Virus record (IMG/VR): IMGVR_UViG_3300021961_000104
Coordinates: 1-59,340 of that record
DNA from: a virus
Lineage: Duplodnaviria > Caudoviricetes
Strand: one strand, 5' to 3'
DNA: 59,340 nt
Below, piece by piece: positions 1-27,200 of the stretch. The notes beneath the pieces were generated by a model. That model had not been told where the DNA came from, ran no database searches, and was given only the letters and a program-made list of their open reading frames with translations. The first letter of the stretch is position 1; each line of letters starts with the position of its first letter. Made by a program: the position numbers and the translations under genes.

Positions 1-160
1 ATTACATATTACTGGGTATGGTGTTGTCCCCTCCCCTCTACACGTTTTTTCTCTAGGAAAAATCATTTCACAAAACGGGCCCCACCCTTCTTTTCTAGAC
101 AATTTTCTATACCTCAACGAGACCCCCTCCCCCACCCCATAGATTTATGACTTTGTCTAG

Positions 161-283
161 ACTATACTATACTCTACTATACTCTACTACTCTATACTAT
201 ACTAAACAATACTACACAGTACTATACGATACTATACTATACTCTACTATACTATACTATACTACAAATACTCTACGATACTA
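161..283. repeat. Degenerate 5-bp tandem repeat array (ACTAT/ACTCT) at the left end
   Basis: actatactat actctactat actctactac ... with 5-nt periodicity over about 120 bp; non-coding, G-poor strand. Confidence 0.9.
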
Positions 284-294
284 TTTGGATAATA
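264..294 (+). promoter_or_regulatory. Early promoter-like motif copy 1 (ACAAA-N5-TACGA-N8-GGATAATA)
   Basis: ACAAA TACTC TACGA TACTATTT GGATAATA; same spacing as five other copies. Confidence 0.65.
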
Positions 295-464
295 CTAATG
301 TTACTAATCTAAACTAATACTAATGTTCTTACATGCTATCTTTCTAGTATTTATTCAAGTCACTATACTAATCTATACTCAGAAATAATATCATACCCAG
401 ATATGATAAATTCAAGTATCATCAATACTAATGATATTTTAACTCCAATACTAATACTAAAAAC

Positions 465-512
465 TGTGACAATAGCCTATTACTCTATATTACTTAATAC
501 CCTTATGTCACA
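465..512. promoter_or_regulatory. Palindrome-flanked site A (TGTGACA-N34-TGTCACA), putative operator/origin
   Basis: Terminal 7-bp inverted repeat; interior matches the reverse complement of 8725-8770. Confidence 0.65.
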
Positions 513-539
513 CTTTTCTAAAACTAATTAAAAACTAAC

Positions 540-570
540 ACAAACAAAATACGTTATCGTCCGGATAATA
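540..570 (+). promoter_or_regulatory. Early promoter-like motif copy 2
   Basis: ACAAA CAAAA TACGT TATCGTCC GGATAATA, upstream of ORF 631. Confidence 0.75.
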
Positions 571-630
571 TAATAAACCAATAAGCAAATATAAAATATA
601 AAATAAATAAATTAAATTAAAATTAAAATT

Positions 631-855
631 ATGCAAATTAAATCAAATCGCTTCGTCATTCGCAAATCATTAATTGGCCAAAATGCCATTATCAATGTCA
701 CTTTCAAAAATAATAAAACTTTTGAATATAATCATGATATCGCTTATGAACTCATGTCTTCAAAATTAAATGAAATGCCTTGCTTTTTAAAATATAAAAG
801 CTATACTTCATCAACTTCAATACCAAAAATATTGCAAAACGCTCAAGTTTTATAA
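631..855 (+). CDS. Hypothetical early protein
   Basis: 74-aa ORF after promoter motif with A-rich leader. Confidence 0.75.
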   Translation: MQIKSNRFVIRKSLIGQNAIINVTFKNNKTFEYNHDIAYELMSSKLNEMPCFLKYKSYTSSTSIPKILQNAQVL

Positions 856-886
856 TATTTTAATATTGCTTTTGAAAAATTGCTAT

Positions 887-924
887 AGACTATATTTTTC
901 TTTGTAGAAAGAGATATATAGTCT
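887..924. terminator. Intergenic hairpin, possible terminator or processing site
   Basis: AGACTATAT...ATATAGTCT inverted repeat downstream of ORF 631. Confidence 0.4.
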
Positions 925-1075
925 TAAACCACCAACTACTTTTTATCAATAAAACAATTATACACTTACAAACTTAAAAAATTATGAGAAAATTCTATCA
1001 CTTTGTATTAATAAAATTCGAGCAATTCCAAGAATTTATGGGAAAAGCACCTAGTGAAACGACTTGGTTTTAATT

Positions 1076-1106
1076 ACAAACTAAAAACGATGCACTTTGG
1101 ATAATA
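1076..1106 (+). promoter_or_regulatory. Early promoter-like motif copy 3
   Basis: ACAAA CTAAA AACGA TGCACTTT GGATAATA. Confidence 0.7.
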
Positions 1107-1443
1107 TAATAAATGCAAAATTATACCTATGATTAATAAAATATTCGAACTTCAAACTTCATTTCAAATAATTTATTCGCACAAATATAAATTATATGAC
1201 TTCACTATTATTGACTTGGAAAGTAAAAAAGTTTTACACCATTATCATTATCCAAATTTAAAAATTATAAATAAATTAATTCAAGAATATAAATAAACAT
1301 TATGAAAAAAGTAACAATTACACTACGATCTTCACAATCCGTTAAAGAAATAAACAAAATAATGGAAGAAATGCTATGGGATAGTGAATTCAGCTATGAG
1401 TTTGAAGACGCGCTTTGGGTGATATCGAAAGATTAATTCAATC

Positions 1444-1474
1444 ACAAACCAAATACGATTATCTTTGGATAATA
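1444..1474 (+). promoter_or_regulatory. Early promoter-like motif copy 4
   Basis: ACAAA CCAAA TACGA TTATCTTT GGATAATA. Confidence 0.75.
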
Positions 1475-1716
1475 TAATAAACAATTAACCAAATATTATA
1501 AAATGGAATTATTATTTAACCCTTCTGACATTATTTCACATGAAAAATTAAAAACTTGGAGTAAAAAAGCTTTAACAGAATATATATTATATTGCACCTA
1601 TATTAAATTTCCTGAAGATAGTTATGAAGAAGATGAACTTCCAATGAATAAATTAATTGCTAAAATATAATTAAAACTTTCCATGCCTGGGATTAGAAAT
1701 ACGGGTGATGCCAAAT

Positions 1717-1757
1717 AGAAGTAATGGTTAATGCGAGTTCGATTCTCGCGACTTCAA
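1717..1757 (+). ncRNA. tRNA minihelix-like element (partial acceptor stem + T arm)
   Basis: GCGAG-TTCGATT-CTCGC T arm; GAAGT pairs with ACTTC; ends ACTAA like the two tmRNA-like RNAs. Confidence 0.5.
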
Positions 1758-1785
1758 CTAAATTAATAAATTAAAAAATAAAATT

Positions 1786-1905
1786 ATGGCAAATATGAGT
1801 ACAGACATCATGAAAATCTCGTTAAAATTATTCAATAAATTTTGGCATGAGTTAAATTCACAACAAAAAGATACAGTTTTAGAAGCGTATTACGATTGGT
1901 GTTAA
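1786..1905 (+). CDS. Small hypothetical protein (39 aa, MANMSTD...)
   Basis: Read manually; first 15 nt identical to start of ORF 2852. Confidence 0.55.
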   Translation: MANMSTDIMKISLKLFNKFWHELNSQQKDTVLEAYYDWC

Positions 1906-1909
1906 TATT

Positions 1910-2125
1910 ATGAAAATATATCAAGTAACAAATTTGTTTTTTCCAAACAAAAAAACATATCGCTGTGATATTGACGGTGATTCTATAGTTGGTGATTATG
2001 CATCAGTATCTGAATGGCGTAATGATAGACTTGAGAATAGTGATTATTACAAAGAATTAAAAGAATTAAACACTAAAGCTACTATTGAATTTTTGTCAAA
2101 AGACAAGGGTAACAAAGGTGATTAA
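1910..2125 (+). CDS. Hypothetical protein
   Basis: ORF track, tightly packed operon. Confidence 0.7.
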   Translation: MKIYQVTNLFFPNKKTYRCDIDGDSIVGDYASVSEWRNDRLENSDYYKELKELNTKATIEFLSKDKGNKGD

Positions 2126-2142
2126 TAAATAATGTAAAAATT

Positions 2143-2460
2143 ATGAAAATAAAAGTGAAAAATCAATTAAATTCTTTTGTTAATATTGATGAAGATGTAA
2201 ACGTTATTTGCAAAGGATGTTTTGGAGGCGATCAAATTAACCAACATACGAAATTTGGTGGTGGTCAATTTAATATGGGCGCAGAATTTAACGGTGGTCA
2301 ATTTAACCAAAAAACAAAATTCCTCGGAAGTCAATATAATTGTGATGCAACATTTAACGGAAGAATGTATTTTACTAACAACACAGTTTGGAAAGAAGGG
2401 ATTTGGAAGCAGAATGATGATGGCACTTTTACCGAATGCAAAATAATACCTAAAAACTAA
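2143..2460 (+). CDS. Protein with 11-aa FxGxQxN tandem repeats (beta-solenoid-like)
   Basis: FGGDQINQHTK/FGGGQFNMGAE/FNGGQFNQKTK/FLGSQYNCDAT. Confidence 0.7.
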   Translation: MKIKVKNQLNSFVNIDEDVNVICKGCFGGDQINQHTKFGGGQFNMGAEFNGGQFNQKTKFLGSQYNCDATFNGRMYFTNNTVWKEGIWKQNDDGTFTECKIIPKN

Positions 2461-2610
2461 AACAATGAAAATAACAGTAAAACACTACGGCGAAAAAGTA
2501 ACAGTCTCAACAAAACGAAATGATCTTTCTCTTGATGAATTTATGGATTGTGTAAAGACTATTGCTACAGCAATATATAACGAACAATTAGTAGAAAATT
2601 ATTGGAAATA

Positions 2611-2823
2611 ATGAAAACACCGATGCAAGAGTTGATTGAGCAACTCAATAGGGTAAAGCCCACAGAATTTTGTTCTATTGAAACAATTAAAGGATGGGCA
2701 GAACAAATGCTTGAGAAAGAGAAAAAGGTGGTGTGTGAGTTTGCATACAATTGCAGGAATATAATGGCAGCAGATGAATTTGCTATTAAACATTGGTACG
2801 ACAAAACTTTTAACACTAAATAG
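2611..2823 (+). CDS. Hypothetical protein (start moved to ATG, MKTPMQELIE)
   Basis: ORF track 2602 start is TTG; in-frame ATG at 2611. Confidence 0.7.
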   Translation: MKTPMQELIEQLNRVKPTEFCSIETIKGWAEQMLEKEKKVVCEFAYNCRNIMAADEFAIKHWYDKTFNTK

Positions 2824-2851
2824 AAATAAAAAACATTTAAAACAAAATACT

Positions 2852-3049
2852 ATGGCAAATATGAGTTATTGCAGAATGCGAAATACTGCAAATGATTTAC
2901 AAGATTGTATAAATGCAATTGAAGAAGGAGAATATACTGATGGAATAAGTAGAGAAGAAAGACGAGGTTTAAACGAAATACTTGAATTAGCTCAACACTT
3001 AATTGATAATCTTCAAGACGAAATTGGAGAAATGTCAATAGCATATTAA
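2852..3049 (+). CDS. Hypothetical acidic protein (MANMSYCR...)
   Basis: In-frame ATG at 2852 after A-rich leader, no overlap with upstream gene. Confidence 0.75.
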   Translation: MANMSYCRMRNTANDLQDCINAIEEGEYTDGISREERRGLNEILELAQHLIDNLQDEIGEMSIAY

Positions 3050-3051
3050 AA

Positions 3052-3501
3052 ATGAAGAAGATAATTTATATAGACATGGACGGCGTTTTAGTCGATTTAG
3101 ATTCAGAAATAAAAAAAACTGAAACTAAAATAAACGGCAAAATGAAGTTTTGTGGTGTTGGTTTTACTAATTTATTCAAAAATCCACAGCCAATAAGTGG
3201 TGCGATTGAAGCTTTTGAAATACTTAGAAAATCACCTAAATACGATGTCTATATATTATCTTCAGCTCCATGGCAAAATCCTGCTACTTGGACATACAAA
3301 AGACTATGGGTAGAAAAATATTTAGGCAAATCTGCTTTCAAAAGACTAATATTATCACATCACAAAAATTTATGTGCCGGTGATTACTTAATTGATGACA
3401 GATTAGCGAACGGTTCTGATAAATTCAATGGTGAATTAATACAATTTGGAACAAAAAACTTTGAGAATTGGAGTGTAATATTGAAATATCTTCAACCTTA
3501 A
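3052..3501 (+). CDS. HAD-family 5'(3')-deoxyribonucleotidase (NT5C-like)
   Basis: IYIDMDGVL motif I, LSS motif II, K..W, LIDD motif IV. Confidence 0.9.
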   Translation: MKKIIYIDMDGVLVDLDSEIKKTETKINGKMKFCGVGFTNLFKNPQPISGAIEAFEILRKSPKYDVYILSSAPWQNPATWTYKRLWVEKYLGKSAFKRLILSHHKNLCAGDYLIDDRLANGSDKFNGELIQFGTKNFENWSVILKYLQP

Positions 3502-3502
3502 T

Positions 3503-3533
3503 ACAAATAAAATACGATTATCTATGGATAATA
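3503..3533 (+). promoter_or_regulatory. Early promoter-like motif copy 5
   Basis: ACAAATAAAATACGATTATCTATGGATAATA, identical to copy 6. Confidence 0.8.
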
Positions 3534-3555
3534 TATTTATAAACAAACAATAACT

Positions 3556-3738
3556 ATGCAAATGAAAAAAATTAAATTTTTAACCGGAAAACGTATATCT
3601 CTTGACGGAGTTATATATAAGCCTTATTTATTAAGCGAATTACCAAATAGCTTCGGCGTGATTTGGGATGAGAATCGAGAAGATTTTGGAATTTCACAAT
3701 GGTTTAATTACAAAGGATTGACTTATGTCCGTAGTTAA
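3556..3738 (+). CDS. Hypothetical protein
   Basis: ORF directly after promoter motif. Confidence 0.7.
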   Translation: MQMKKIKFLTGKRISLDGVIYKPYLLSELPNSFGVIWDENREDFGISQWFNYKGLTYVRS

Positions 3739-3976
3739 TATGAAAGAATTATGCCTCTATGTAGAACAGGCGAGAAAAAATCGTGCAGCGGAGCATAGAC
3801 GCAAGCACTCACATGAAAAACTGTGCGGTGGACTTACAGACTCTGAATATAACAAGATGGTAATCAGACAGAAATCTAGCTTTCCCAAAGCTAAAAAGTT
3901 CACCCATAGTAAAATGTGGCAAGATACACACAAGAAATTTGATGTAAAACAGTTAAATATTATAAAAAAATCATGA
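3725..3976 (+). CDS. Hypothetical basic protein
   Basis: ORF track, short overlap with upstream gene. Confidence 0.7.
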   Translation: MSVVNMKELCLYVEQARKNRAAEHRRKHSHEKLCGGLTDSEYNKMVIRQKSSFPKAKKFTHSKMWQDTHKKFDVKQLNIIKKS

Positions 3977-4102
3977 AAAAAGATATTTTAAATTACATAG
4001 ATTGGAATAATATTTGTAAGGATTATGATTTAGAAAGTGGTGATTTATCTTTAGATCATACTTTAACGTTAGAATATATATTAGAATATTTTATAAAAGC
4101 AA

Positions 4103-4133
4103 ACAAATAAAATACGATTATCTATGGATAATA
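4103..4133 (+). promoter_or_regulatory. Early promoter-like motif copy 6
   Basis: 31-bp exact repeat of 3503-3533. Confidence 0.8.
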
Positions 4134-4160
4134 TATATGTAACAAATAAAAACAGAAATT

Positions 4161-4409
4161 ATGAGTAAGTTTTTTAATAAACAACTAATCGATGAATTAG
4201 TAGAAATAGCTCAACATGAAGGTTGGGAAATAATGGTAAATGATGTTTATAATCTGATTAATCTTGAATATAGTAACGAAAATAAAGAAGATAGATTTAC
4301 ATTGATGAAAACATTAATAAACGAAGTTGGTTTTGTTATTAAACAAAAGTTAATAATTAAAAATAAACATGAAAACATTAGGTTATTTTATAGTAGAAAA
4401 CGAAATTGA
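4161..4409 (+). CDS. Hypothetical protein
   Basis: ORF after promoter motif. Confidence 0.65.
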   Translation: MSKFFNKQLIDELVEIAQHEGWEIMVNDVYNLINLEYSNENKEDRFTLMKTLINEVGFVIKQKLIIKNKHENIRLFYSRKRN

Positions 4410-4535
4410 AAGAAATGTATTAGAAGTAGCGCTCGATCACATGGAAGAGCATCTAATAAATATTAGCGATGAGGTAGATGTTAAAAATAGGCTCAAAGCT
4501 TGTAGAAATTTAATGAAAAAAATAATATATTAATT

Positions 4536-4733
4536 ATGAATATTAAATATTGTAAATGCGGAAAAACAGTGCATCCAATACGATTAAAATTAGGTTATAA
4601 TACTTGTGTAGATCATTCTACAGTGCAAACTTACTCTTATGTTCCAATTATCGAGCATAAAACAGGTAATACAATTCAAATCGTTAGCCAAGAAGTTAGT
4701 GCTTCAGTGCACAGAGCTTGGCGACGTAAATAA
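4536..4733 (+). CDS. Small zinc-finger protein (DksA/TraR C4-finger-like)
   Basis: CKCGKTVHPIRL...TCVDH resembles CxxCGxxIxxxRL...CxxC. Confidence 0.55.
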   Translation: MNIKYCKCGKTVHPIRLKLGYNTCVDHSTVQTYSYVPIIEHKTGNTIQIVSQEVSASVHRAWRRK

Positions 4734-4739
4734 AATCAC

Positions 4740-4816
4740 GGGGGTGATTGGTTTTGACATAGCGTAAAGCCTACAAGGAAACGTTATGGAAGAGGGTTCG
4801 AATCCCTCCACCTCCA
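4740..4816 (+). ncRNA. Mini tmRNA-like RNA: tRNA-like domain only, Ala identity
   Basis: GGGGGTG/CACCTCC acceptor with G3:U70, A discriminator, stemless D loop ATTGGTTTTGAC, 8-bp P2-like helix, T arm GAGGG-TTCGAAT-CCCTC. Confidence 0.8.
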
Positions 4817-4842
4817 CTAAAACAAATAAATTATACATTATT

Positions 4843-5073
4843 ATGGCTAAATACAACGGTTGGACAAACTACGCTACATGGCGTATAAACTTAGAAATAT
4901 TAGAAGATATTGAATTTGAAAAACAAGTTTCTGCAGATTATTTAAAAGAAATAGTAGAAAATATAATATTCACTAACAAATCTGAAGGTGGATATATAGA
5001 AGATTACGCTAGAGCTTTTGTATCTGAAGTTAATTTCTATGAAATAGCTAAAAATATTAATGAAGAAAAATAA
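4843..5073 (+). CDS. Hypothetical phage protein (MAKYNGWTNYATW)
   Basis: In-frame ATG after the ncRNA; YNGWxNxxTW motif familiar from phage early genes. Confidence 0.8.
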   Translation: MAKYNGWTNYATWRINLEILEDIEFEKQVSADYLKEIVENIIFTNKSEGGYIEDYARAFVSEVNFYEIAKNINEEK

Positions 5074-5083
5074 ATAAATAAAA

Positions 5084-5356
5084 ATGACAAAAACAGAAAC
5101 AAAAAATCCAGAATTTTTAAAAGTAATGAATTACTTTTCAGATGTAACTTTTTTTGATAACGTAAACGGTGAAGAAGTTCATGTTCACGATTTTGCAAAA
5201 GATGATAATATAAGTTCATTTGGTTATATGTTCTGGTGGAATTTTGATGAACAAGAATGTGGTATTGAGTATATGAATACCCCGGGTTCTATTGAAAATG
5301 ATGAACCTTGTAGAACTGCGCAAGATTTTATTAACTACATTGAAGACAGTATGTAA
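5084..5356 (+). CDS. Hypothetical acidic protein
   Basis: ORF track. Confidence 0.75.
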   Translation: MTKTETKNPEFLKVMNYFSDVTFFDNVNGEEVHVHDFAKDDNISSFGYMFWWNFDEQECGIEYMNTPGSIENDEPCRTAQDFINYIEDSM

Positions 5357-5358
5357 AT

Positions 5359-5736
5359 ATGAGAGATATTAAAATACCTAAACATCAAGAAATAGTTAAT
5401 AAAATTAATGCTATGCAAGATTTTACTTACTATAAGAAAAAAAAGCGTAAATTAAGATATGTAGTTAGTTGTAATAACCTATATAAAGGCGAAAATCCAT
5501 CAATGAAGTGGTTTAGTTCTAATGAAAAAATAGATGAAATACTTAAAGACGAAACGTTCGAAGGTATTGGAGGGTGGTTTGATAAAGAAAACAATATTTA
5601 TTATGTAGACGCTGTGAAAACGTATTTAACTTTAAGCGTTGCTATGGGTATGGCTAATATGTTTAAAGAAAAAAGTATTTATGACACAAAAGAAAATAAA
5701 GTATTAAAAGTAAAAGATTATTATAAATTAGTATGA
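5359..5736 (+). CDS. Hypothetical protein (possible phage SAM-lyase-like fold, GGW..D...YYVD..QxSIYD pattern)
   Basis: C-terminal GGWFDKENNIYYVDA...EKSIYD; function only tentative. Confidence 0.6.
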   Translation: MRDIKIPKHQEIVNKINAMQDFTYYKKKKRKLRYVVSCNNLYKGENPSMKWFSSNEKIDEILKDETFEGIGGWFDKENNIYYVDAVKTYLTLSVAMGMANMFKEKSIYDTKENKVLKVKDYYKLV

Positions 5737-5984
5737 ATAAATTAAGTTTATTAGAAAGATTAAGACCTGACATAAAGCAGCAATTAGATAAAGACGAATA
5801 TCTTTATCCAGCTGTTATTAAAGATTTAAAGTTTTTATTATCACAACAAATTTTCTATAGCGATCTTACAGTTGGTCAAGTTATACAGTTGTGTTTATTT
5901 TCAACAATAAAAACGTACGATAGAACCTCTTTCAATTGGAAATATGGAGATGATTTATTTGAAGAAGAAAAAGAAAATATATGA
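5733..5984 (+). CDS. Hypothetical protein
   Basis: ATGA overlap with upstream gene. Confidence 0.75.
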   Translation: MNKLSLLERLRPDIKQQLDKDEYLYPAVIKDLKFLLSQQIFYSDLTVGQVIQLCLFSTIKTYDRTSFNWKYGDDLFEEEKENI

Positions 5985-6187
5985 ATACAATACACCAAAA
6001 AGCAAGCGATAGAGCTTTTGCAAAGTTAACAATGCTATTGTTAGAAAAAGAAAAAATAGAACAAGACTTGAGAAAAAGAAATACTGGAGGTTTAACCTTA
6101 GAAGAGTTTAAATCTTTACATGAAGGTCACTTACAAGAAATAAAAATATGGAATTATATAGCAAATTTAATAGAAAAAAACACATAA
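5981..6187 (+). CDS. Hypothetical protein
   Basis: ATGA overlap with upstream gene. Confidence 0.75.
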   Translation: MNTIHQKASDRAFAKLTMLLLEKEKIEQDLRKRNTGGLTLEEFKSLHEGHLQEIKIWNYIANLIEKNT

Positions 6188-6190
6188 ATT

Positions 6191-6637
6191 ATGAAAAAAA
6201 TAACAGAAGAATTAATTAACGAAAGATTAGAAGCTAAAGGCTTTGGTGAAAATATAGCTAAAGACGAAGATTTAGTGCACGAAGCTGTGCTAGGTCACTA
6301 TGGTTGTGAGTTAATTGACGAATGGGATGACAACGCGGAATACTTTATTTGCGAAGAGTCAACTGCTGATGGATATTCAGTGTACATTGCCACCTCAAAT
6401 CCACGTCAAATTAATGTTAGTGAAGACGTACATTATTACGATTCAGACCTCGGTGAAATGCTAGCCGAAGCTATAAAATGGAGTAATGGCGATACAGAAG
6501 ATCGAGTAAAAATATATGTTGAGGATCTAGGTGCACAATATGTTCAAGATGCAATGGAACAATTATTTGAAGAGCTTTCAGAAAGATTTGAAGAAGAAGT
6601 CTTAATGGATCTTAAAGAAGAAGGTTATTCTGAATAA
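6191..6637 (+). CDS. Highly acidic early protein (candidate DNA mimic)
   Basis: About 41 D/E versus about 11 K/R in 148 aa (hand count). Confidence 0.75.
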   Translation: MKKITEELINERLEAKGFGENIAKDEDLVHEAVLGHYGCELIDEWDDNAEYFICEESTADGYSVYIATSNPRQINVSEDVHYYDSDLGEMLAEAIKWSNGDTEDRVKIYVEDLGAQYVQDAMEQLFEELSERFEEEVLMDLKEEGYSE

Positions 6638-6649
6638 AATAGAGTAACA

Positions 6650-6730
6650 GGGTGTGACATCGGTTGATTGTACTAGGAACTCGGAGAGGAGATACGGTAC
6701 AGGGTATAGGTTCGAATCCTATCACATCCA
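6650..6730 (+). ncRNA. Second tmRNA-TLD-like/atypical tRNA-like RNA with Ala identity
   Basis: GGGTGTG/CACATCC acceptor with G3:U70, A discriminator, no D stem, TGTACT/GGTACA helix, T arm ATAGG-TTCGAAT-CCTAT. Confidence 0.75.
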
Positions 6731-6751
6731 CTAATTATAAAACAAAAATTA

Positions 6752-7045
6752 ATGACAGAAGAAGAAATGGACAAAATAGCTGAAATTATTGTCAATAAAA
6801 TGATAAAAAAGCAAGCGGAATATGACCAAAAGTTTAAACAAGAGTTACAAATGATTATAGATAATAATTTAGAAGACAATGATTTAATTATAGAACTTAA
6901 TACACAAAGTGCTTCTGATGTTGCTCGCCAAGAAATAGAAAGACTTAATAAAGAATTAAAAAACTCTATAGAGCAAGAAAATTACGAAAATTGTATTAAC
7001 CTTGCTAATCAAATTAACTATTTAAAAGAAAAATATAAACTATGA
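6752..7045 (+). CDS. Coiled-coil protein with C-terminal UVR (UvrB/C)-like motif
   Basis: LKNSIEQENYENCINLANQI. Confidence 0.65.
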   Translation: MTEEEMDKIAEIIVNKMIKKQAEYDQKFKQELQMIIDNNLEDNDLIIELNTQSASDVARQEIERLNKELKNSIEQENYENCINLANQINYLKEKYKL

Positions 7046-7872
7046 TAAAACCAATGTTAGCACATAAAGTTAACAATAATAAAATTGACTGGTCTGAAGA
7101 TGTTTTTATTCAGCCAAAACTAGACGGTGTCCGTTGTGTATTCACTAAAGATGGTGCTTATTCTCGTACTGGTAAAAAGTTTTATAACTTACGTCACGTA
7201 GAACTTGAACTCAAAGATTTTTTTATCAAAAATCCATTTGCAGTATTAGACGGTGAGTTATATAATCATGATCTAAAAGACGATTTCGAACAAATCATAT
7301 CGTTAGTCAGAAAACAAAAACCAACTGAAGAGGATCGCAGAAATGCACAAAATCTCATACAATATCATGTGTATGATACTATAGCCGAAGGTCCTAATTA
7401 CAAAGATAGACTCGAGTGGTTGCAATCAAATGTAATCACCGATCAAACTGTAAGATTAGTATTAACTATGAATGTAAATAATTATAATGAAGCTAATAGA
7501 TTTCATAATGATGTTTTCTTAAAACAAGGTTATGAAGGTTCTATATTACGCTTAAATCGTGCTTATGAGCAAAAACGCAGTTATAATCTTATGAAATTTA
7601 AAGATTTCAGCGATGACGAGGCTGTAATTATAGATTATGTCGCTGGTAAAGGCAAGAGACTTGGAACTCTTGGTAAATTTATTATGCGAGATGACTCTGG
7701 CATTGAATTTGGTTGTCCTCCGGGTAAAGGTTGGGACTACAGTAAATTAGAATATATATTAAATAATATTCAAGATTATATAGGTAAAAAAGCCACGTTC
7801 ACTTATTTCGAAAGAACTAAAGCTAATAGCTACAGACATCCACAATTTAAAACAATTAGAGATTATGAGTAA
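7042..7872 (+). CDS. ATP-dependent DNA ligase
   Basis: KLDGVR motif I, LDGEL, YDT, EGSILR, KFK; C-terminal OB fold. Confidence 0.95.
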   Translation: MIKPMLAHKVNNNKIDWSEDVFIQPKLDGVRCVFTKDGAYSRTGKKFYNLRHVELELKDFFIKNPFAVLDGELYNHDLKDDFEQIISLVRKQKPTEEDRRNAQNLIQYHVYDTIAEGPNYKDRLEWLQSNVITDQTVRLVLTMNVNNYNEANRFHNDVFLKQGYEGSILRLNRAYEQKRSYNLMKFKDFSDDEAVIIDYVAGKGKRLGTLGKFIMRDDSGIEFGCPPGKGWDYSKLEYILNNIQDYIGKKATFTYFERTKANSYRHPQFKTIRDYE

Positions 7873-7950
7873 ATTAATATGGAAATTATACAATGAAAAC
7901 ATGATAAGCCAAGAAGTGGCTCAAATGTTACTAGATAAATACTATGAATA

Positions 7951-8454
7951 ATGAATATATTTTATTTAGATAGAGATCCAGTGAAAGCTGCACAAGTACA
8001 ATATGACAAGCATGTTGTTAAAATGATCTTAGAATCAGCTCAAATGTTGTGCACAGCACATCATCACTATGCTGAATTATTAGGTTATGACAATAGTTAT
8101 ATTCCTTACAAAAAAGCACACTACAATCATCCTTCAACAATATGGACTAGAAAAAATAGTAGAAATTACTATTGGTTGTTTAATCACATGATCGCATTAG
8201 GCAATGAATACACTAAACGTTATGGTAAAAAACACTTAAGCATAACCAAATGTTTTGAGGTACTTCAAAATTGTCCCTTAGGTATGCCATTAGGTGGTTC
8301 TTTTACAGAGCCACCTCAATGTATGCCAGATCAATATAAAGTTGATGGCGATAGCGTGTCAGCATATTGGAATTATTATGAAAACGAAAAACACACTGTA
8401 AAAAACAAGAATGAGCAAAAAATTATACGACATATTAACATTAAACAATTATAA
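7951..8454 (+). CDS. Pyrimidine-dimer DNA glycosylase/endonuclease V-like protein
   Basis: MNIFYLD...DKHVVKMILESAQML, NHPSTIW, PQCMPD family motifs. Confidence 0.8.
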   Translation: MNIFYLDRDPVKAAQVQYDKHVVKMILESAQMLCTAHHHYAELLGYDNSYIPYKKAHYNHPSTIWTRKNSRNYYWLFNHMIALGNEYTKRYGKKHLSITKCFEVLQNCPLGMPLGGSFTEPPQCMPDQYKVDGDSVSAYWNYYENEKHTVKNKNEQKIIRHINIKQL

Positions 8455-21229: not shown

Positions 21230-24200
21230 TTATTGTTTTTTACTCATTAATTCTAATATCTTATTAACTCTATCTTCTTCATATTTTAAAGCTCTAATTT
21301 CTTTTTTACTTAAACCAAAGTTAGTTAATGTTTTTACTTGATCTGGTTTGTTCTCGGCTTTAATTGAATCAAATTGTTTTTGTAATCTTTGTTCAGCTGT
21401 TAGTTTCTTAGGTTTAACCTCTTCTTTTGGTTTAACTTCTTTTTTAGTAGATTCTACTTCTTCTTTAGTTTCAATTTTTTCTATAGGTTTATTTTTTAAC
21501 TCTATAATTTTATTGACTCTATTTTCTTCGTATTTTAATTCTTTAATTTCAGCTTTAGTTAAACCTAATTCTTCCAACATTTGCTTTTGTTCAGCAGTGT
21601 TAGTTTGGTCCATCATTAATTTAACAGCTTCAGCAGCTTCTTCTTCTGGTGTTAAAGGCTCAACAGCATCAAAACCACCGTAATAAGGTAAACCAACGTC
21701 GTAAGTTGACCAACCTAAAATTAAAGCTATTTTTTGCCATCTTACAGAAAGTTCGCTAAATATACCTCTCATGTTGTTTGTTTTCTTAACAACTCTGTCT
21801 ACTGGCACGTTAGTTAAACCTGTAAATACTTGAGCTACTGCTAAGTAAGCTGGATTATCTAAACTCCAACCTTTTTCTTTCATTTCTTTTTTATTCCAAC
21901 TAAAAGATCTTAAACCTCCATATATTTTACCTACTTTAGATCCTAATGGCGGAGAAAAAGCAAACAAATCCTCAACAGCTTCTTCGTATTCAGGTCTTTT
22001 TTTATCATTTTCTTCCATTAAAGTTAACAAAAAGTTTTTTAAGGAAGATACAGCAGCCCCAGTTATACCAAGTCCTCTAAGTTGAGAATCAAGCATACCA
22101 TTTGCAACTTTAACAGCTTTTTCTTTACGAGTATTTTTTAGCTCTTCTTTGCTATCATCATCGTCATCATCTCCAAAACCAATAGCATCTATAGCTGATT
22201 GAAGTGTATTGAATAATAAGTTTTGAACAATACCATAGTATATTATTTTAGAAACATTAGCTTTAGCATTGCCTCTACCGTTAACAAGATCTTGTATAGC
22301 TCTTTTTTGAATACGAGCATACTGCATTGGTGTATTTGCCCATGCTAATATAACTCTACCAGCTGTTGACGCTTGTTGTTTACTAATTCTAACCGGATTG
22401 CTAGACTGTTGACTTTCTTCTGCTATTGCTCTAAAATCTTCAAAAGCACGTTGTTCAGCTAGTTTAGGATCCATACCTGATTTAACTAAACTTTTTATTC
22501 TATTTCTATAAAATGTAGAACCTCCACTAGCTATAGCAAAACTATCTGCAATTTGAGTCATAACAAATCCTTTGTTAAGGATATAAGAAATAATAGCAGT
22601 CGCTTTATTTTTAGAGTTAGCAGCAGCATCAGCAATTTCAGATTCACTTATGTTTATCTTTAAACCATTTCTACGTTCAACAAGATAATCAGAATTCATT
22701 AATGTAATAAAATCTTTCCAAAATTGTTTTTGATTAGCAAATGCTAAACCTGCTTTAAATATATTATTATCACTCCAGTTTATAAAGTTTACAGATGATA
22801 TAGTTTGTAACAAGGCACTTCTAGTATTCAAAAACATAACAGCACCAACGGAATTGTTAAGCCAATCTAATATACCTTGTGTAGTACTATCACCTCCTTT
22901 GGGTCTATTACTACCAGACTTCATTCTACGGATAGAATCCTCTATAGCTGCTCGCCAATTAGTACCATAAGCAGCTTCCATTTTATTTAAATTTTCTTCT
23001 GAAAATATAATATCAACATTTTCTCTAAACTCTTGTTGGTACTCGGCTCTTTTAACTGTATTTATATCATTAATAATATCAGAACTTATAGTACCGGCTA
23101 ACCAACTATCAGATGGTGAAGGATATGGTTTGTCTTTTTGTATAGTAAAAAGTTGCTCTGCAAATACTTTTAATTTAGGATCACTTTCAACAAATGAAGT
23201 TAAATCTTGAATATCTTTTTTACTTAAACCAGGAATTTCGACACCTTGACTTTGCCATATAAACACTCTTATAGCATGAGAATAATTAAACTTACCTATA
23301 CCAGTTTGTTTGTTAAGTGTTTTTGGTAATGTTTTAAGCTGTGTTTTTAAAGCAATAAAATCGTTCATTGCAGCTATCTTAGCTTGAGTTACAGATATTT
23401 CAGATCTATTGTATGTATCTAAAAGATTTTGTTTTAGGAACGCCATTTGTGCATCACCTTTTTTACCTTTACCTATCATTTCATACAATAAACCAGTAAA
23501 ATCTTCTGCGCCAGCGGGTATAAAGAAATTGTATTTACCTTTTCCAGCGCCAACAGTTCTAGCTTTAGCTGCTGAGTATTTTTTATAAGTTTCAATACCA
23601 GCTGTATCAAAAATCATATCATTAATAACTCTATCAAAATCTTGTCTTTTACTAGCTTTAGCTTGTTGAACTTTAGACTTAACGTCAATTTGACTCAATA
23701 CTTCTTCAACAGCTTTTACATTTCCAGTAACATCATCAGCAAAGTAAAAATCATTATAACCTTCAGAAGCTTTGTCCATAATCCATCTAGCCTTAGCTTC
23801 AGCAGCGCCATCACCAAGTCCAGTTATATTTTTAATAGGTATATTTAAACCTAAACTTTTAAGGAATTGTTGAATTGGTTTAGCGGCGTCAGCTGGTCTT
23901 GCTGTTAAAACAAAAATATCTTTAGTACCTCTTTTGTCAGCTATAATTTTAGCGACTTTAAACAATGGTCCTTCTTTGCCATCTATAACTTTGCTAAATT
24001 CAGAAAAATTCCATTCAGCTCCTTGTGCTTCTAAATCAGTGGCTTGTTCAGCGAAAGTTCCAGCCTCTAGTTTACCTTGAATATTGCTATTAATACCAGC
24101 ATAAACTTTATCTAAAAAATCTTGTGGTAAATCCTCTCCAAAGCCTATTTCTTCTGTATTTATTTCATACAACTTATCGCCAAAATCTTTTCTATAAAGC

Positions 24201-27200
24201 TCGGTACTTTCTTGCACTTGGTTCCAACTTCTTTCGACTATAAAATCTGGTAAAGATCTTTCTACTCTAGCTTTGTTTCTAGCCAATGCCGTTTCTAAAG
24301 ACGTATTAGCAACTACCATATGGACTTCATAACCTGCATCCTGCAACTGCTTAACTTTTTTCATTGTAGCAGGGTAAGAAGCTCCAGTGCCGTCAATCAC
24401 CATACCATCGCCATTAGCAGCGTATTTATCAAATTTAGCAACAGCAGCTTTTCTAGCAGCGGCACCCAATTTAGCTCTAGTAGATATTTGCTCTGTAGTA
24501 TATTCAGCTTCTTTAGCTGGCAGTCCAGCTTCAGCTTTCATAACTTCTAAAGCTATATCTTGATTAACAACTTTATAACCTTGTCTACCTAACTTAAGCC
24601 CTTTTCCAATGTTTGTTTTTCCAGCACCAGGTCCACCAACCATAAATATAGCTTTCTGTCTAACTGATTCAGGAGAAAAACCACCTTCAAAATTAGGCAT
24701 AGTATATATAACTCTACTATTAGTACGAGCTAATGTATCGTCAAAATCAAATACTCTAATTTTCTTAACTGGCGCGTTTAATTTTCTAGCATTATTTAAA
24801 GCTTTATCAGCTTTGCTTAAAGCATCGATACTAGTTTTAACTGTTACAGCTTTATCGTACTTTATAGAGTCAGGGATTAAATCACTATTACGTTTAGAAG
24901 CCATTGCTTTACCTTTAACTAAAGGTAGATAAGCTTTAATTGTTTGACTAGGATTATAATTTAGATCACTAATAGCCTTAATTATTTGTTCGTTTTGATA
25001 AGAAATAGCCTCTAACTTTTGACTTTCGTTATAAGAATTATAAACATCTAGTGGAATACCAGCGTTTACAGTTTCAGCCATAGTTTTGCCAGTGTAAGGA
25101 TTTGTAATAGTATTTAAATCTATACCAGCAGCAGCAAGTCTAACTATTGGATTGTCAAATATAGTGAAACCTTCTGGAAGAGTAGAATCTAACTTAGCCA
25201 TATCTAATAAAAAGTCATCCTTTTTAGATAATTGAGTTTGATAATAGTTATCTCTAATAGCTTGCATTATTGGTTGGGCTTTGTTATTTTTTATTGCCCA
25301 CATAATATAAGCTCCAACTACAGAAGCTGGTGGATTATGTTCTTCTCTATATTTTTCTCCTTTTCTTTGCTCTGGTTTACTACCTTTTCCAGCATATTCC
25401 ATTGTGTTGGATCTGTATAAAAAAGGAGCGGCTATTTTTATTAAACCAGAAGTGGCTTGATAGCTTTGTACAATTATAGTTCCAGCTACATCTAAAGACA
25501 TTCCATTAGCAACAGCGTCAGCAAGTTGATTAACAACATGATCTAACACATCCATGTTTACTTTAGACTGAACCTTTGCTTTATCTGTAAAAGCATTTTT
25601 GATATTTATTTTTATAGGTTTTTTACCTTTATATTCTTTAGTTGATTCTATTAATTTTATATAAACAGGATCTTTTTCACCATAATATAATCTTCCTGGT
25701 TTTGCAACCCAATTAGTTATTTCGCTACCAAGGCTACCTTCAGCAGATTTCTCTAAAAAATATCTACCATCTGTAGTTTTAACATATTTTTCAACACCAA
25801 TAGTGCCTTTTTTTCCTTTTACAAATTTACCATCAACTATTTTACCGTAAAAACTTTGTCTTCCACCACTACCCATCATTCCAGCTCTCAATGTAGCTGT
25901 ATCAAGTCCATATTTTTCGACAGCTTCTTGTATTTGATCTTGAATAGTTTTTCTATTTTGTTCATTTATAGAAGGTGAATTATAACGCAACGACTTAGCT
26001 AAATCGGTTTTAGATCTTAGTATGCTTAAACCTTTTAGTTCTTCTAAATTTTCAGGCGTTATTCTTTTACTAGCCATTGATTTAGATTTTCCAGCAGCTA
26101 TATCTTGTTTAACCTCTAAATTTAAATCAGTTTCAGATCTTACTATTTCATTAGTTACTAATCTACCATATAGATTTGCAATACCTTTTAACGCTTGAGC
26201 CTCAGATGATCTAGCGCTAAAGTCTTCAGCTTTTTTACCTTCAACTATACCAAACGTTTTTAGAAAATCAGCTTTTGTAATTCCTTTATTTAAAGCAAAC
26301 GGAGATAAACCAGCTCCTTTAGTAATTCTAGGTTTTTTAGTATAAAAAGCATTTAACAAACCCTTTGGCACTCCAGTAGAGGTACCTAAGAGCTTATCTG
26401 TTGCAGCTTCTATCACTGCGCCTTCAGGTAATATCTTTAATAATTTATCTGCGTTCTTATTGACAAATCTTTGTATAGCATTAGCATCACCTTTAGATAG
26501 GTTAGCAGTTGGATCTGTTAGTTTTTTAACTGGTATTCCAATTTCTTGAGCTATAATTTCAGGAGCTAGATCGCCTAACTTCTTAAACGTCATTTGTTCA
26601 GGATCTATACCTTTTATTTTAGAAGCAATATTTTCTTTTATTTTAGCAACAGCATCGTTAGATATTAAAGAGCTAGGTTTTATTAAAGTTGTAACTGGTT
26701 TTGTAGATACTTCAACATCTTGCTCTGTAGCTGTTTGGCGTTGCATTTTTTCAGTAACACCTTCTTGTGACTCAGATTGAATGATCTCATTATATCTAGG
26801 GTCAGCTTCATAAAACTCTTGCAACCTAGCGTCAAATAAGCTTCTGCCAGAAGCAGACTTTGAGTTTAAGTAACCCATGACACTATCGTTTCGATCTGGT
26901 GTCCATTTATCTATTAAGCTAACTAATCCTCTTTTTTCATCTAAAGCAAAAGTTCTAGCTATATCATCAATAACGTCTTCGCTTAGGTTTATATTACGCA
27001 TACGTCTTTTAGCCTCATCAACTAAAGAATACGCAGCCATAATAGTAGCATCTTTCTTTTTATTAGAATCAAGAAGATCTGGCTTCATGGCCTCAACTTC
27101 TTGATATACTCTTTTACTCTCTTTAGCAGCAGTATCAGTGACCTCGTCTTGCATCAAACTCTCAAAACTTTTAATAGCTTTAGCGCCTTTGGTTCTTTGA

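What the first reader, a model, noticed from the sequence alone, without database searches (positions are those of the whole stretch)
4740..4819. 77-nt tmRNA mimic with the tRNA-like domain but no mRNA-like domain
Seen: 5' GGGGGTGATTGGTTTTGAC, 7-bp acceptor with G3:U70, A discriminator, unpaired D loop, CATAGCGT/ACGTTATG helix closing a 15-nt insert, 3-nt linker, canonical T arm, no encoded CCA. Known: this is the architecture of the tmRNA TLD, charged by AlaRS via G3:U70 and bound by SmpB; normal tmRNA carries a few hundred nt of pseudoknots and tag ORF at the insert position. Inference: a phage RNA that titrates SmpB/EF-Tu, rescues ribosomes without degradation tagging, or decoys a defence nuclease. 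I know TLD-only RNAs from some mitochondria but not as a described phage system.
Basis: partly seen in the sequence, partly recalled or inferred. Interest (0 to 1): 0.85.

Follow-up and report, generated by a model that had tools for sequence, protein, structure and literature searches.

The report
Tag-less mini-tmRNA gene in a phage
A phage related to phages of marine flavobacteria carries an 80-base RNA gene that copies only the alanine-accepting, tRNA-like end of the bacterial ribosome-rescue RNA (tmRNA); one such phage RNA was already described, and this one belongs to a much larger, little-noticed family.

Summary
Window 4740-4819 (+) matches Rfam tmRNA end to end (65 bits, cut-off 47), with 306 central model positions replaced by 13 nt. 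It has a 7-bp acceptor stem with G3:U70, an A discriminator, an unpaired D-loop analogue, an 8-bp P2 helix closing a 15-nt insert, a T arm and no encoded CCA. There is no tag frame and there are no pseudoknots.

It is not a one-off deletion. A strict pattern finds 101 such stretches in IMG/VR. The family covaries strongly (95% of cells paired against 67% shuffled; G3:U70 in 88 of 88 rows). Five relatives of this phage carry only short tmRNA-like RNAs and no full-length tmRNA. A weaker second copy lies at 6650-6733.

It is not new in kind. Mycobacteriophage DS6A has a "TLD only" tmRNA, and a similar molecule inhibits tmRNA in E. coli (PMC4131195, PMC11915505). DS6A's RNA fits my family model (61 bits).

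Most likely it is processed like a tRNA, charged with alanine and bound by host SmpB, so that stalled ribosomes are diverted from degradation tagging. Expression, charging and SmpB binding are untested. It is a new member of a known kind, and the family's breadth looks under-described.

The parts
4740..4819 (+). TLD-only mini-tmRNA gene: 77 nt to the discriminator plus a 3-nt CTA trailer
   Evidence: Rfam tmRNA 65 bits, E 3.9e-23; family model R1 80.9 bits; MFE fold
4740..4746 (+). acceptor stem, 5' strand (GGGGGTG); G3 of the G3:U70 pair is at 4742
   Evidence: sequence; G3:U70 in 88 of 88 distinct family rows
4747..4757 (+). unpaired D-loop analogue ATTGGTTTTGA carrying the tmRNA signature letters (GG, TT, GA of GAC)
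   Evidence: aligned to the conserved GGaUUCGAC of the Rfam consensus
4758..4765 (+). P2 helix, 5' strand (CATAGCGT)
   Evidence: fold; all 8 pairs of this helix show changes on both sides across the family
4766..4780 (+). 15-nt insert in place of the pseudoknots and tag frame: purine-rich AAAG, then a small CC..GG hairpin; holds the family motif AAAGCC
   Evidence: an A-R-R-R-C-C-type motif in 43 of 73 family RNAs against 5.1 expected from shuffles
4781..4788 (+). P2 helix, 3' strand (ACGTTATG)
4789..4791 (+). 3-nt linker GAA (GAC in most family members)
4792..4808 (+). T arm GAGGG-TTCGAAT-CCCTC
   Evidence: 5 of 5 pairs formed in 73 of 73 RNAs
4809..4816 (+). acceptor stem 3' strand CACCTCC (U70 at 4813) and discriminator A (4816)
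   Evidence: A discriminator in 73 of 73
4817..4819 (+). 3' trailer CTA. CCA is not encoded, so 3' trimming and CCA addition would be needed.
   Evidence: CCA is encoded in only 25 of 74 unique pattern-hit sequences
6650..6733 (+). second, weaker anticodon-less tRNA-like RNA: acceptor GGGTGTG/CACATCC with G3:U70, A discriminator, the same CTA trailer, a T arm, and a TGTAC/GTACA stem closing a 23-nt insert
   Evidence: R1 39 bits, E 7.6e-7; Rfam tRNA 24.8 bits, below the cut-off of 29; ARAGORN none; fold not better than shuffles, z -0.49; relatives carry 1-2 similar RNAs
4536..4733 (+). upstream 65-aa ORF on the same strand, ending 6 nt before the RNA; no family match
   Evidence: carried together with the RNA on contigs of a 90-95% similar relative
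4843..5073 (+). downstream 76-aa ORF on the same strand, starting 24 nt after the RNA; weak DUF7249 / phrog_871 match

Best explanation
Window 4740-4819 is a real phage RNA gene: a tmRNA reduced to its tRNA-like domain (TLD). It sits among small same-strand early genes of a podophage related to phages of Flavobacteriia.

Inferred mechanism:
1. It is transcribed with its neighbours.
2. It is cut out like a tRNA: RNase P at the 5' end, 3' trimming to the discriminator, then CCA addition.
3. It is charged with alanine by host AlaRS through G3:U70 and A73.
4. It is bound by host SmpB at the D-loop/T-loop elbow.
5. Because it has no resume codon, no tag frame and no stop codon, it competes with host tmRNA for SmpB, and probably for EF-Tu and stalled ribosomes. 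Nascent proteins on broken or cleaved phage mRNAs then escape the ssrA degradation tag.

Shown here: the architecture, family-wide covariation, invariant alanine identity elements, enrichment in phages, the absence of a phage SmpB or any conserved protein partner, and likeness to the DS6A RNA. Inferred: expression, processing, charging, SmpB binding and the effect on tagging.
For: Identity and structure:
- Full-length match to Rfam tmRNA with the centre deleted.
- The fold equals the TLD plus P2.
- No anticodon arm: ARAGORN finds no gene.

Family:
- The strict pattern gives 101 stretches in IMG/VR.
- These reduce to 74 unique sequences including the window.
- On the 89-row model alignment, 95.1% of cells pair against 66.9% in shuffles (0 of 500 shuffles reach it). 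The covariation score is 0.643 against 0.132. Slid controls give 47-55%. 19 of 23 pairs change on both sides.

Alanine identity:
- G3:U70 is GU in 88 of 88 rows, while the neighbouring pairs 5:68 and 6:67 swap freely (GC 41, CG 21, AU 16 and others).
- U70 and A73 were not constrained by my search pattern.

No protein partner:
- No SmpB domain in the window.
- No translation-related Pfam family in 20 early ORFs.
- The largest shared neighbour protein cluster covers 7 of 74 loci. The RNA must therefore work with host factors.

Precedent:
- DS6A is listed as 'TLD only', and a similar molecule strongly inhibits tmRNA whether or not it can be charged (PMC4131195 passages; PMC11915505 passages).
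- The DS6A RNA (28478-28560) scores 61.2 bits with R1 and has the same inner hairpin type and the same ACTA end.

Coexistence with full-length tmRNA, which suggests the short form is not simply a substitute for the long one:
- Streptomyces phage Peebs.
- 3 of 3 Poribacteria genomes.

Conservation in a relative:
- Contigs of a 90-95% similar phage show no substitution inside 4740-4819.
- The same contigs show 5 substitutions in the upstream ORF and 22-25 in 5108-5300.
Against: - No expression, processing, CCA addition, alanylation or SmpB binding was measured. The two metatranscriptome runs are held as contigs, which cannot show transcription, RNA ends or strand.
- No promoter or terminator signal stands out. 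Sigma-70-like sites number 41 against 51.7 expected. The Bacteroidetes-type motif (recalled consensus) gives 8 matches against 5.6 expected.
- The host is unknown, so the host SmpB and tmRNA could not be compared.
- The nearest complete or cultured relatives lack the RNA: MW202828, Elemovirus, and Cellulophaga and Tenacibaculum phages. It is therefore dispensable for this phage type.
- According to the citing papers, inhibition by a TLD-only RNA does not need charging. Yet G3:U70 is invariant here. That fits a charged RNA reaching the ribosome better than pure titration, so the exact mode of action is open.
- Part of the apparent conservation is circular. My pattern fixed GGGG, GA, GG, TT, GAC and most of the T loop. 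The alignment counted was fitted to the model.
Confidence: 0.5

Rival explanations
1. Tag-less ribosome rescuer. The alanine-charged RNA, with SmpB and EF-Tu, enters stalled ribosomes and accepts the nascent chain. The peptidyl-RNA is then released by a stop-independent route such as an ArfB-type hydrolase, or by drop-off followed by Pth. Ribosomes are freed and the protein gains one alanine but no degradation tag. The benefit would be rescue capacity, not inhibition.
For: - G3:U70 (88 of 88 rows) and A73 stay invariant while other acceptor pairs covary. This argues for selection on charging.
- CDS-less tmRNAs in mitochondria and plastids co-occur with SmpB and are thought to help with incomplete mRNAs (PMC11915505 passage).
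- In the current model, Ala-TLD with SmpB is the unit that enters the A site and receives the peptide (PMC3929946 passages).
Against: - With no stop codon there is no built-in release step.
- No ArfB, Pth or release-factor-like gene was found in the 20 early ORFs scanned. The rest of the window was not scanned for these.
- The only experimental precedent cited reports inhibition, not rescue.
Confidence: 0.25
2. Anti-defence decoy. The RNA mimics tmRNA or tRNA to soak up, or mis-trigger, a host defence component that recognises the tmRNA/tRNA acceptor-T-arm shape. Examples would be nucleases acting on tRNA or tmRNA, or systems with SmpB-like domains.
For: - CoCoNuT type II and III-A systems carry SmpB-like domains predicted to bind tmRNA (PMC11090510 passages).
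- A phage anti-CRISPR associates with tRNA and tmRNA fragments (PMC11662646 passages).
- The RNA lies among small early ORFs of unknown function, a typical place for counter-defence genes.
- It is scattered across unrelated phages.
Against: - No defence system is known to be blocked by such an RNA.
- A decoy need not keep the alanine identity set invariant.
- Poribacteria keep a syntenic chromosomal copy among ordinary genes, which fits a housekeeping role.
Confidence: 0.1
3. Alanyl donor outside the ribosome. An anticodon-less alanine acceptor would supply Ala to a transferase, in the way Ala-tRNA is used in cell-wall or lipid modification, without being drawn into decoding.
For: Only the invariant alanine identity elements and the lack of an anticodon.
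Against: - No transferase gene is conserved next to it.
- It keeps tmRNA-specific D-loop and linker letters rather than tRNA-Ala features.
Confidence: 0.03
4. Non-functional relic: a captured piece of host ssrA (for example an attachment-site remnant) or a decayed phage tmRNA.
For: - tmRNA genes are common integration sites, and phages can carry ssrA fragments (PMC9004378 passages).
- The closest cultured relatives lack the RNA.
Against: - Both halves of the TLD are joined by a helix that covaries across the family.
- No tyrosine integrase in the window.
- No substitutions inside the RNA while the flanks diverge.
- Relatives keep 1-2 such RNAs and no long form.
Confidence: 0.03
5. An unusual tRNA-Ala that decodes codons.
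For: G3:U70, A73 and a normal T arm. The second element at 6650-6733 scores 24.8 bits with the Rfam tRNA model.
Against: - There is no anticodon stem-loop. An 8-bp helix with a 15-nt insert stands where the D stem, anticodon arm and variable loop should be.
- ARAGORN finds no gene.
- The Rfam best match is tmRNA.
Confidence: 0.02

Closest known systems
TLD-only tmRNA of mycobacteriophage DS6A (tmRNA Website entry; Mao et al. 2009, as cited in PMC4131195 and PMC11915505)
   Same: - Phage-borne, about 80 nt.
- Acceptor stem with G3:U70, A discriminator, unpaired D-loop analogue ending in GAC.
- A 6-8-bp P2 helix closing a short hairpin that starts with a purine-rich run followed by CC.
- T arm, and the same ACTA 3' end.
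- Not annotated in the GenBank record.
- Hit by the same model R1: 61.2 against 80.9 bits.
   Different: - A different phage type and host phylum (a siphophage of mycobacteria, against a podophage of the Flavobacteriia-phage type).
- GC-rich against AT-rich genome.
- The Rfam score is below the cut-off for DS6A (43 bits) and above it here (65 bits).
- The window has a second, weaker copy.
- The inhibition experiment used a similar E. coli-based molecule, not this RNA.
Canonical bacterial tmRNA (Rfam RF00023)
   Same: 5' and 3' ends, G3:U70, the D-loop analogue, the start of P2 and the T arm. The match runs end to end and is over the gathering score.
   Different: It lacks the 306 central model positions: no pseudoknots, no resume codon, no tag frame, no stop codon. 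It is 77 nt against roughly 350.
CDS-less organellar tmRNAs (jakobid and oomycete mitochondria, RF02544; about 65-bp plastid forms in Mallomonadaceae)
   Same: Reduced to the tRNA-like domain with no tag reading frame (PMC11915505 passage).
   Different: - Organellar, and usually circularly permuted two-piece genes in mitochondria.
- They are the only tmRNA of their compartment.
- Here the RNA is an extra, phage-supplied copy facing a host that presumably has a full tmRNA.
Full-length phage tmRNAs (Bxz1-type mycobacteriophages, Bacillus phage G, two-piece tmRNA of Methylophilales phage Melnitz)
   Same: A phage-encoded member of the tmRNA family (PMC4131195; PMC9004378).
   Different: Those keep a tag frame. 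Streptomyces phage Peebs carries both kinds, an annotated 267-nt tmRNA and an unannotated short form, so the two are distinct genes.
Phage-encoded tRNA genes
   Same: Small, and presumably processed and charged by host enzymes. In some phages the short form sits inside a tRNA array (Peebs; L028, L059).
   Different: No anticodon arm, so it cannot decode. The window holds no ordinary tRNA gene.

Membership tests
tmRNA (RF00023), tRNA-like domain | Score over Rfam's gathering cut-off, with both ends of the model matched | tested here: met
   65 bits against 47, model positions 1-374
tmRNA (RF00023), tRNA-like domain | 7-bp acceptor stem with G3:U70 and A73 (alanine identity) | tested here: met
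   Sequence; GU in 88 of 88 family rows
tmRNA (RF00023), tRNA-like domain | Unpaired D-loop analogue with conserved GG..UU.GAC, and a T arm | tested here: met
   Alignment to the Rfam consensus; fold
tmRNA (RF00023), full molecule | mRNA-like domain: resume codon, tag reading frame and stop codon | tested here: not met
   Only 15 nt lie inside P2. Across the family, 32 of 45 motif-bearing RNAs have no in-frame stop after the CC-ending triplet.
tmRNA (RF00023), full molecule | Pseudoknots PK1-PK4 | tested here: not met
   306 model positions are replaced by 13 nt
tmRNA (RF00023), function | Alanylation by AlaRS and binding by SmpB | not testable with these tools
   Needs biochemistry. The window encodes no SmpB of its own.
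Phage TLD-only tmRNA (DS6A type) | Phage-borne RNA of about 65-105 nt: TLD plus P2 closed by a short hairpin, with no tag frame | tested here: met
   DS6A and the window both match R1 over positions 1-82.
Phage TLD-only tmRNA (DS6A type) | Purine-rich run followed by CC at the start of the insert | tested here: met
   Window AAAGCC; DS6A AAAACC; 43 of 73 family RNAs against 5.1 expected. This is my own observation, not a published criterion.
Phage TLD-only tmRNA (DS6A type) | Inhibits host trans-translation when expressed | not testable with these tools
   Reported for a similar molecule in E. coli. Known to me only through citing sentences; the primary paper is not held.
tRNA-Ala | Cloverleaf with D stem and an anticodon arm bearing an Ala anticodon | tested here: not met
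   ARAGORN finds no gene. The fold has a single long helix with an insert.
ssrA-derived attachment site of a temperate phage | Only the 3' part of ssrA, with an integrase in the genome | tested here: not met
   Both halves are present and paired. No Phage_integrase match in the window.

The most novel reading that the evidence does not exclude
TLD-only tmRNAs are not a curiosity of one mycobacteriophage. They form a widespread, phage-enriched RNA family.

What my calls show:
- At least 101 IMG/VR stretches under a strict pattern.
- Unannotated copies in cultured Streptomyces phages.
- One or two copies per genome in this flavobacterial-type podophage lineage.
- A syntenic chromosomal copy in Candidatus Poribacteria beside the normal tmRNA.
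- A conserved insert motif of their own and invariant alanine identity.

The novel reading is that this family is a general way to reprogramme ribosome rescue during infection. Charged RNAs would enter stalled ribosomes and block or bypass degradation tagging. That would matter most when host nucleases shred phage mRNA.
Probability: 0.35. Interest if true: 0.75.

Novelty: new member of a known kind. Interest (0 to 1): 0.55.

Why it matters
Trans-translation is the main bacterial system for rescuing stalled ribosomes, and it marks unfinished proteins for destruction. A phage that brings a charged, tag-less look-alike of tmRNA would be tampering with that quality control. This would count most when host RNases or defence nucleases cut phage mRNAs.

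The kind is known from one phage and one set of E. coli experiments. The breadth shown here is wider. The RNAs occur in very different phages, in phages that also carry a full tmRNA, and as a stable chromosomal gene in one bacterial phylum. That points to a recurrent, selected function that standard annotation misses. ARAGORN finds nothing or calls bogus long tmRNAs, and several copies fall below Rfam's cut-off.

The work also names cultured systems in which the function can be tested, the Streptomyces phages of the Peebs group.

Tried and rejected
- DNA similarity of window 4000-6000 to 50,697 phage records: no match.
- Promoter and terminator scans of 1-8000, and a Bacteroidetes-type promoter motif (a consensus I recalled): neither exceeds chance. 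They say nothing about transcription.
- Conserved protein partner: all-against-all BLAST of ORFs within 3 kb of 74 family loci gave no cluster larger than 7 loci. Pfam on 20 early ORFs of the window gave no translation-related family. No SmpB and no integrase.
- Hidden short tag frame starting at the conserved GCC: rejected. 32 of 45 motif-bearing RNAs have no in-frame stop, and the triplet lies in a hairpin stem.
- The insert motif as the P2a/P2b junction of normal tmRNA: not seen in the four full-length tmRNAs I looked at.
- Cultured close relatives as a test system: MW202828, Flavobacterium phage elemoE_6-9C, Cellulophaga phages phi13:2, phi38:1 and Calle_1, and Tenacibaculum phage Gundel_1 have no such RNA. 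The only hits there are about 23 bits and not followed up, likely ordinary tRNA genes.
- Sequencing runs: 20 rows, mostly marine, estuary and sediment DNA metagenomes. The two RNA-library runs are contigs of a relative and cannot show transcription, ends, strand or CCA. Parts of the stretch without cover in those runs are not evidence of anything.
- Window 1688-1760 (R1 15.5 bits, E 0.2): a T-arm-like hairpin followed by ACTA but with no acceptor pairing. Not counted as a copy.
- Row dropped before counts: L061. It matched the search pattern, but its 3' side forms no acceptor stem and it gave no R1 hit.
- L103 (Peebs) was left out of the script counts, because its D-loop letters did not fit my parsing expression. 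It is included.
- L127 and L148 among the genome-contig hits also lack an acceptor 3' strand.
- Supplements are closed. Supplementary Table S2 of PMC11915505 (taxonomic breakdown of the 9 'Standard, no CDS' sequences) may list further known cases that I could not see.
- Mao et al. 2009 is not held. I know it only from sentences in papers that cite it.
Full report
1. THE OBSERVATION

- 4740-4746: acceptor strand GGGGGTG, which pairs with CACCTCC at 4809-4815. The third pair is G:U.
- 4816: discriminator A.
- 4817-4819: CTA, so CCA is not encoded.
- 4747-4757: 11 unpaired nt that end in the GA of the tmRNA-typical GAC.
- 4758-4765 CATAGCGT pairs with 4781-4788 ACGTTATG.
- 4766-4780: a 15-nt insert.
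- 4789-4791: linker GAA.
- 4792-4808: a canonical T arm.

Tool results agree.
- Rfam's tmRNA model matches from its first to its last position at 65 bits (cut-off 47, E 3.9e-23), with 306 central positions replaced by 13 nt. It is the only Rfam match over threshold in the window.
- The minimum-free-energy fold is the same structure (z -2.8).
- ARAGORN finds neither a tRNA nor a tmRNA in the window.
This is far beyond chance.

2. THE GENOME

The window is a whole IMG/VR virus record of 59,340 bp, estimated 92% complete, with about 31% G+C.
- It encodes a large terminase, a portal, a virion protein, a tail fibre, a GroEL-like chaperonin, a DNA ligase, a primase-helicase and ribonucleotide reductase.
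- It also encodes ERF, a PDDEXK nuclease, thymidylate synthase and MazG.
- Its terminase is 63% identical to that of an uncultured podophage (MW202828).
- The terminase is 31-44% identical to those of Flavobacterium, Cellulophaga and Tenacibaculum phages. A Maribacter phage is also among the 87 matching records.
- The host is therefore probably a member of the Flavobacteriia. This is an inference.
- The DNA occurs in marine, estuary and sediment metagenomes.
- The RNA lies in the early, rightward-transcribed block of small ORFs. It starts 6 nt after a 65-aa ORF and ends 24 nt before a 76-aa ORF.
- There is no SmpB, no integrase and no ordinary tRNA gene.

3. NOT A ONE-OFF

A pattern built from the element found 101 stretches in IMG/VR. 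The pattern was GGGG..GA, 2-4 nt, GG.TT.GAC, 20-50 nt, GGTTCRA.TCC. The hits reduce to 74 unique sequences including the window.

I dropped L061 because it has no acceptor 3' strand. The remaining 73 all show the following:
- G3:U70 and an A discriminator;
- a 5-bp T stem;
- a helix starting at the C of GAC, 6-10 bp long in 54 of 73.
65 of the 73 have 7 of 7 acceptor pairs.

U70, A73 and the P2 pairing were not part of the search pattern. The 5' GGGG, the D-loop letters and the T loop were, so their constancy in this set is circular.

I built a covariance model (R1) from 24 of these sequences and searched 88 sources with it. It gave 89 hits. On that alignment:
- 95.1% of cells form standard pairs against 66.9% in shuffles (0 of 500 shuffles reach the observed value);
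- the covariation score is 0.643 against 0.132;
- slid controls give 47-55%;
- 19 of 23 pairs change on both sides;
- pair 3:70 is GU in 88 of 88 rows, although pairs 5:68 and 6:67 take four to six pair types.
Caveats: the alignment is fitted to the model, and related sequences inflate the shuffle test. The slid controls and the variety of pair types still make the structure secure.

4. RELATIVES OF THIS PHAGE

Using the DNA ligase 2.2 kb downstream as a handle, I found 15 related IMG/VR loci at 51-76% identity.
- Six of them carry nine R1 hits with E below 1e-3. All are on the ligase strand and upstream of the ligase.
- These RNAs are 71-106 nt long. Eight of the nine have the acceptor pair GGGCGTG/CACGTCC, again with G3:U70, an A discriminator, and a CTA or CTG trailer. 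The ninth (L164:1768-1864) begins AGGC and does not fold into an acceptor and T arm.
- Their inserts vary in length.
- Of the five loci scanned with Rfam (7 of the nine RNAs), the five matches listed at E 0.01 or better are all to tmRNA, at 22-39 bits, below the cut-off. Two RNAs gave no listed match.
- A whole-record search of five relatives, two of them at least 97% complete, found only these short hits and no full-length tmRNA.
- Several loci had too little upstream DNA to judge. The most distant ones with 6 kb of upstream DNA (L170, L171) had none.

The window has a second copy of this looser type at 6650-6733.
- It has the acceptor pair GGGTGTG/CACATCC with G3:U70, an A discriminator, a CTA trailer and a T arm. 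A 5-bp stem closes a 23-nt insert.
- R1 gives 39 bits, E 7.6e-7.
- It is weaker evidence on its own. Rfam tRNA gives 24.8 bits, below the cut-off of 29, and its fold is no better than shuffles.

Contigs of a 90-95% similar phage carry the upstream ORF plus the RNA.
- There is no substitution inside 4740-4819. One contig has an extra G at the 5' edge.
- The same contigs show 5 substitutions in the upstream ORF and 22-25 in 5108-5300.
This is a small sample, but it is the pattern expected under purifying selection.

5. WHAT IS ALREADY KNOWN

- The tmRNA Website paper lists 'Mycobacterium phage DS6A (TLD only)'. [quoted passage not shown]
- The 2025 database paper repeats this and counts 9 'Standard, no CDS' sequences among 97,179. 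It also reports CDS-less plastid forms of about 65 bp, and mitochondrial forms (PMC11915505, passages).
- The primary paper (Mao et al. 2009) is not held.
- I located the DS6A RNA at 28478-28560 of JN698994, unannotated, between gp33 and gp34. Rfam gives it 43 bits and R1 gives 61.2 bits. It has the same parts as the window's RNA, down to a purine-rich run followed by CC at the start of the insert and an ACTA end.
The window's RNA is thus a new member of a known kind.

Six full-text searches found no paper that describes such RNAs as widespread in phages. That is the limit of what I can say about what is in print.

6. THINGS THE LITERATURE I COULD SEE DOES NOT MENTION

(a) Cultured Streptomyces phages.
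- 21 records of the Peebs/Samisti12 group match at least 80% of the window's RNA at 77-79% identity, with no annotated feature under the match.
- In Peebs the RNA lies inside a tRNA array and has G3:U70 and the AAAGCC motif.
- R1 gives it 55.7 bits. Rfam gives only 30 bits.
- The same genome has an annotated 267-nt tmRNA (95 bits).

(b) The insert motif. 43 of 73 family RNAs have A-R-R-R-C-C (or the near variant AA-R-CCC), nearly always 6-9 nt after GAC, against 5.1 expected from shuffles. It heads a small G+C hairpin (helix 3, 79.5% of cells paired).

(c) Bacterial genomes. In 185,579 species genomes the same pattern hits only 34 stretches.
- 21 of these are one conserved chromosomal RNA of Candidatus Poribacteria.
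- It is syntenic in 18 of 21 loci with a PLP-decarboxylase-like gene and lies among ordinary genes.
- It is present beside a full-length tmRNA in 3 of 3 genomes tested.

(d) No protein gene travels with the RNA across phage lineages.

7. MECHANISM

Established knowledge:
- G3:U70 with A73 marks an RNA for AlaRS.
- SmpB binds the elbow of the TLD.
- Ala-TLD with SmpB and EF-Tu is the unit that enters the empty A site and receives the nascent chain (PMC3929946, passages).

The window's RNA keeps all of these parts and lacks everything that follows: resume codon, tag and stop codon.

My best reading (0.5) is that it competes with host tmRNA for SmpB, and probably for EF-Tu and stalled ribosomes, and so lowers ssrA tagging during infection.

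The invariance of G3:U70 argues that charging matters. This leans towards the RNA actually visiting the ribosome. The tag-less-rescue variant (0.25) is therefore a serious rival rather than a footnote.

Coexistence of short and long forms in Peebs and in Poribacteria suggests the short form is a modulator or an alternative rather than a substitute.

A decoy role against defence proteins that read the tmRNA shape (0.1) is suggested only by published predictions (PMC11090510; PMC11662646).

Nothing here measures expression, processing, charging or binding.

8. VERDICT

It is right on anatomy, untested on function and wrong on precedent.
- Novelty: a new member of a known kind. The family's breadth, its own motif, its multiple copies in this lineage and a bacterial chromosomal branch seem under-described.
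- Interest: 0.55.

Noticed in passing
window 6650-6733 (+): A second anticodon-less tRNA-like RNA with G3:U70, an A discriminator, a CTA trailer and a T arm, 310 nt upstream of the DNA ligase gene. R1 gives 39 bits. It is below the Rfam tRNA cut-off and ARAGORN does not call it.
   Followed up: partly
window 1688-1760 (+): A T-arm-like hairpin (GCGAG-TTCGATT-CTCGC) followed by ...ACTA, in a 240-nt intergenic gap, with no acceptor pairing (R1 15.5 bits, E 0.2). It may be a decayed third copy.
   Followed up: no
L103:2496-2575 (Streptomyces phage Peebs, NC_042011 86378-86457), and 20 further Streptomyces phage records: An unannotated TLD-only tmRNA inside the tRNA array of cultured phages that also carry an annotated 267-nt tmRNA (97263-97529). 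Rfam scores the short one at only 30 bits, so pipelines miss it.
   Followed up: partly
L118-L151 (21 Candidatus Poribacteria loci, e.g. L131:4650-4735): A conserved, syntenic chromosomal mini-tmRNA (64-70 bits with Rfam in the 3 genomes tested) with its own hairpin, next to a PLP-decarboxylase-like gene. It is present beside a normal full-length tmRNA in 3 of 3 genomes tested. One genome has two short copies.
   Followed up: partly
L004, L005, L007, L019, L050: ARAGORN anchors long 'tmRNA' calls with implausible 17-33-aa tags on the 3' end of these short RNAs. Such mis-annotations may hide the family in public records.
   Followed up: no
L116:1501-1583 (phage DS6A, JN698994 28478-28560): The published TLD-only RNA of DS6A is not annotated in the GenBank record. 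It lies between gp33 and the DNA polymerase III gene.
   Followed up: yes
family-wide, 6-9 nt after GAC (window 4766-4771): A purine-rich A-R-R-R-C-C-type motif heading a small G+C hairpin occurs in 43 of 73 RNAs (5.1 expected). It is shared by the window, DS6A and Peebs. Its role is unexplained.
   Followed up: partly
window 4788 onward, run X4 (table 7): A loose end in a marine metagenome contig reads like another mini-tmRNA variant joined to the same T arm (it contains AAAGCC). High summed depth over 4640-4741 and 4776-4843 suggests several related elements in that sample.
   Followed up: no
window 21230-29980 (-) and 53882-55435 (-): A 2916-aa ORF of unknown role and a GroEL-like chaperonin gene (phrog_5725, E 1e-133) in a 59-kb podophage-type genome.
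   Followed up: no
L045:4049-4119 (+): A second, weak R1 hit (33 bits) about 500 nt downstream of that contig's mini-tmRNA, next to a tRNA-Asp gene. Multiple copies may occur outside the window's lineage too.
   Followed up: no
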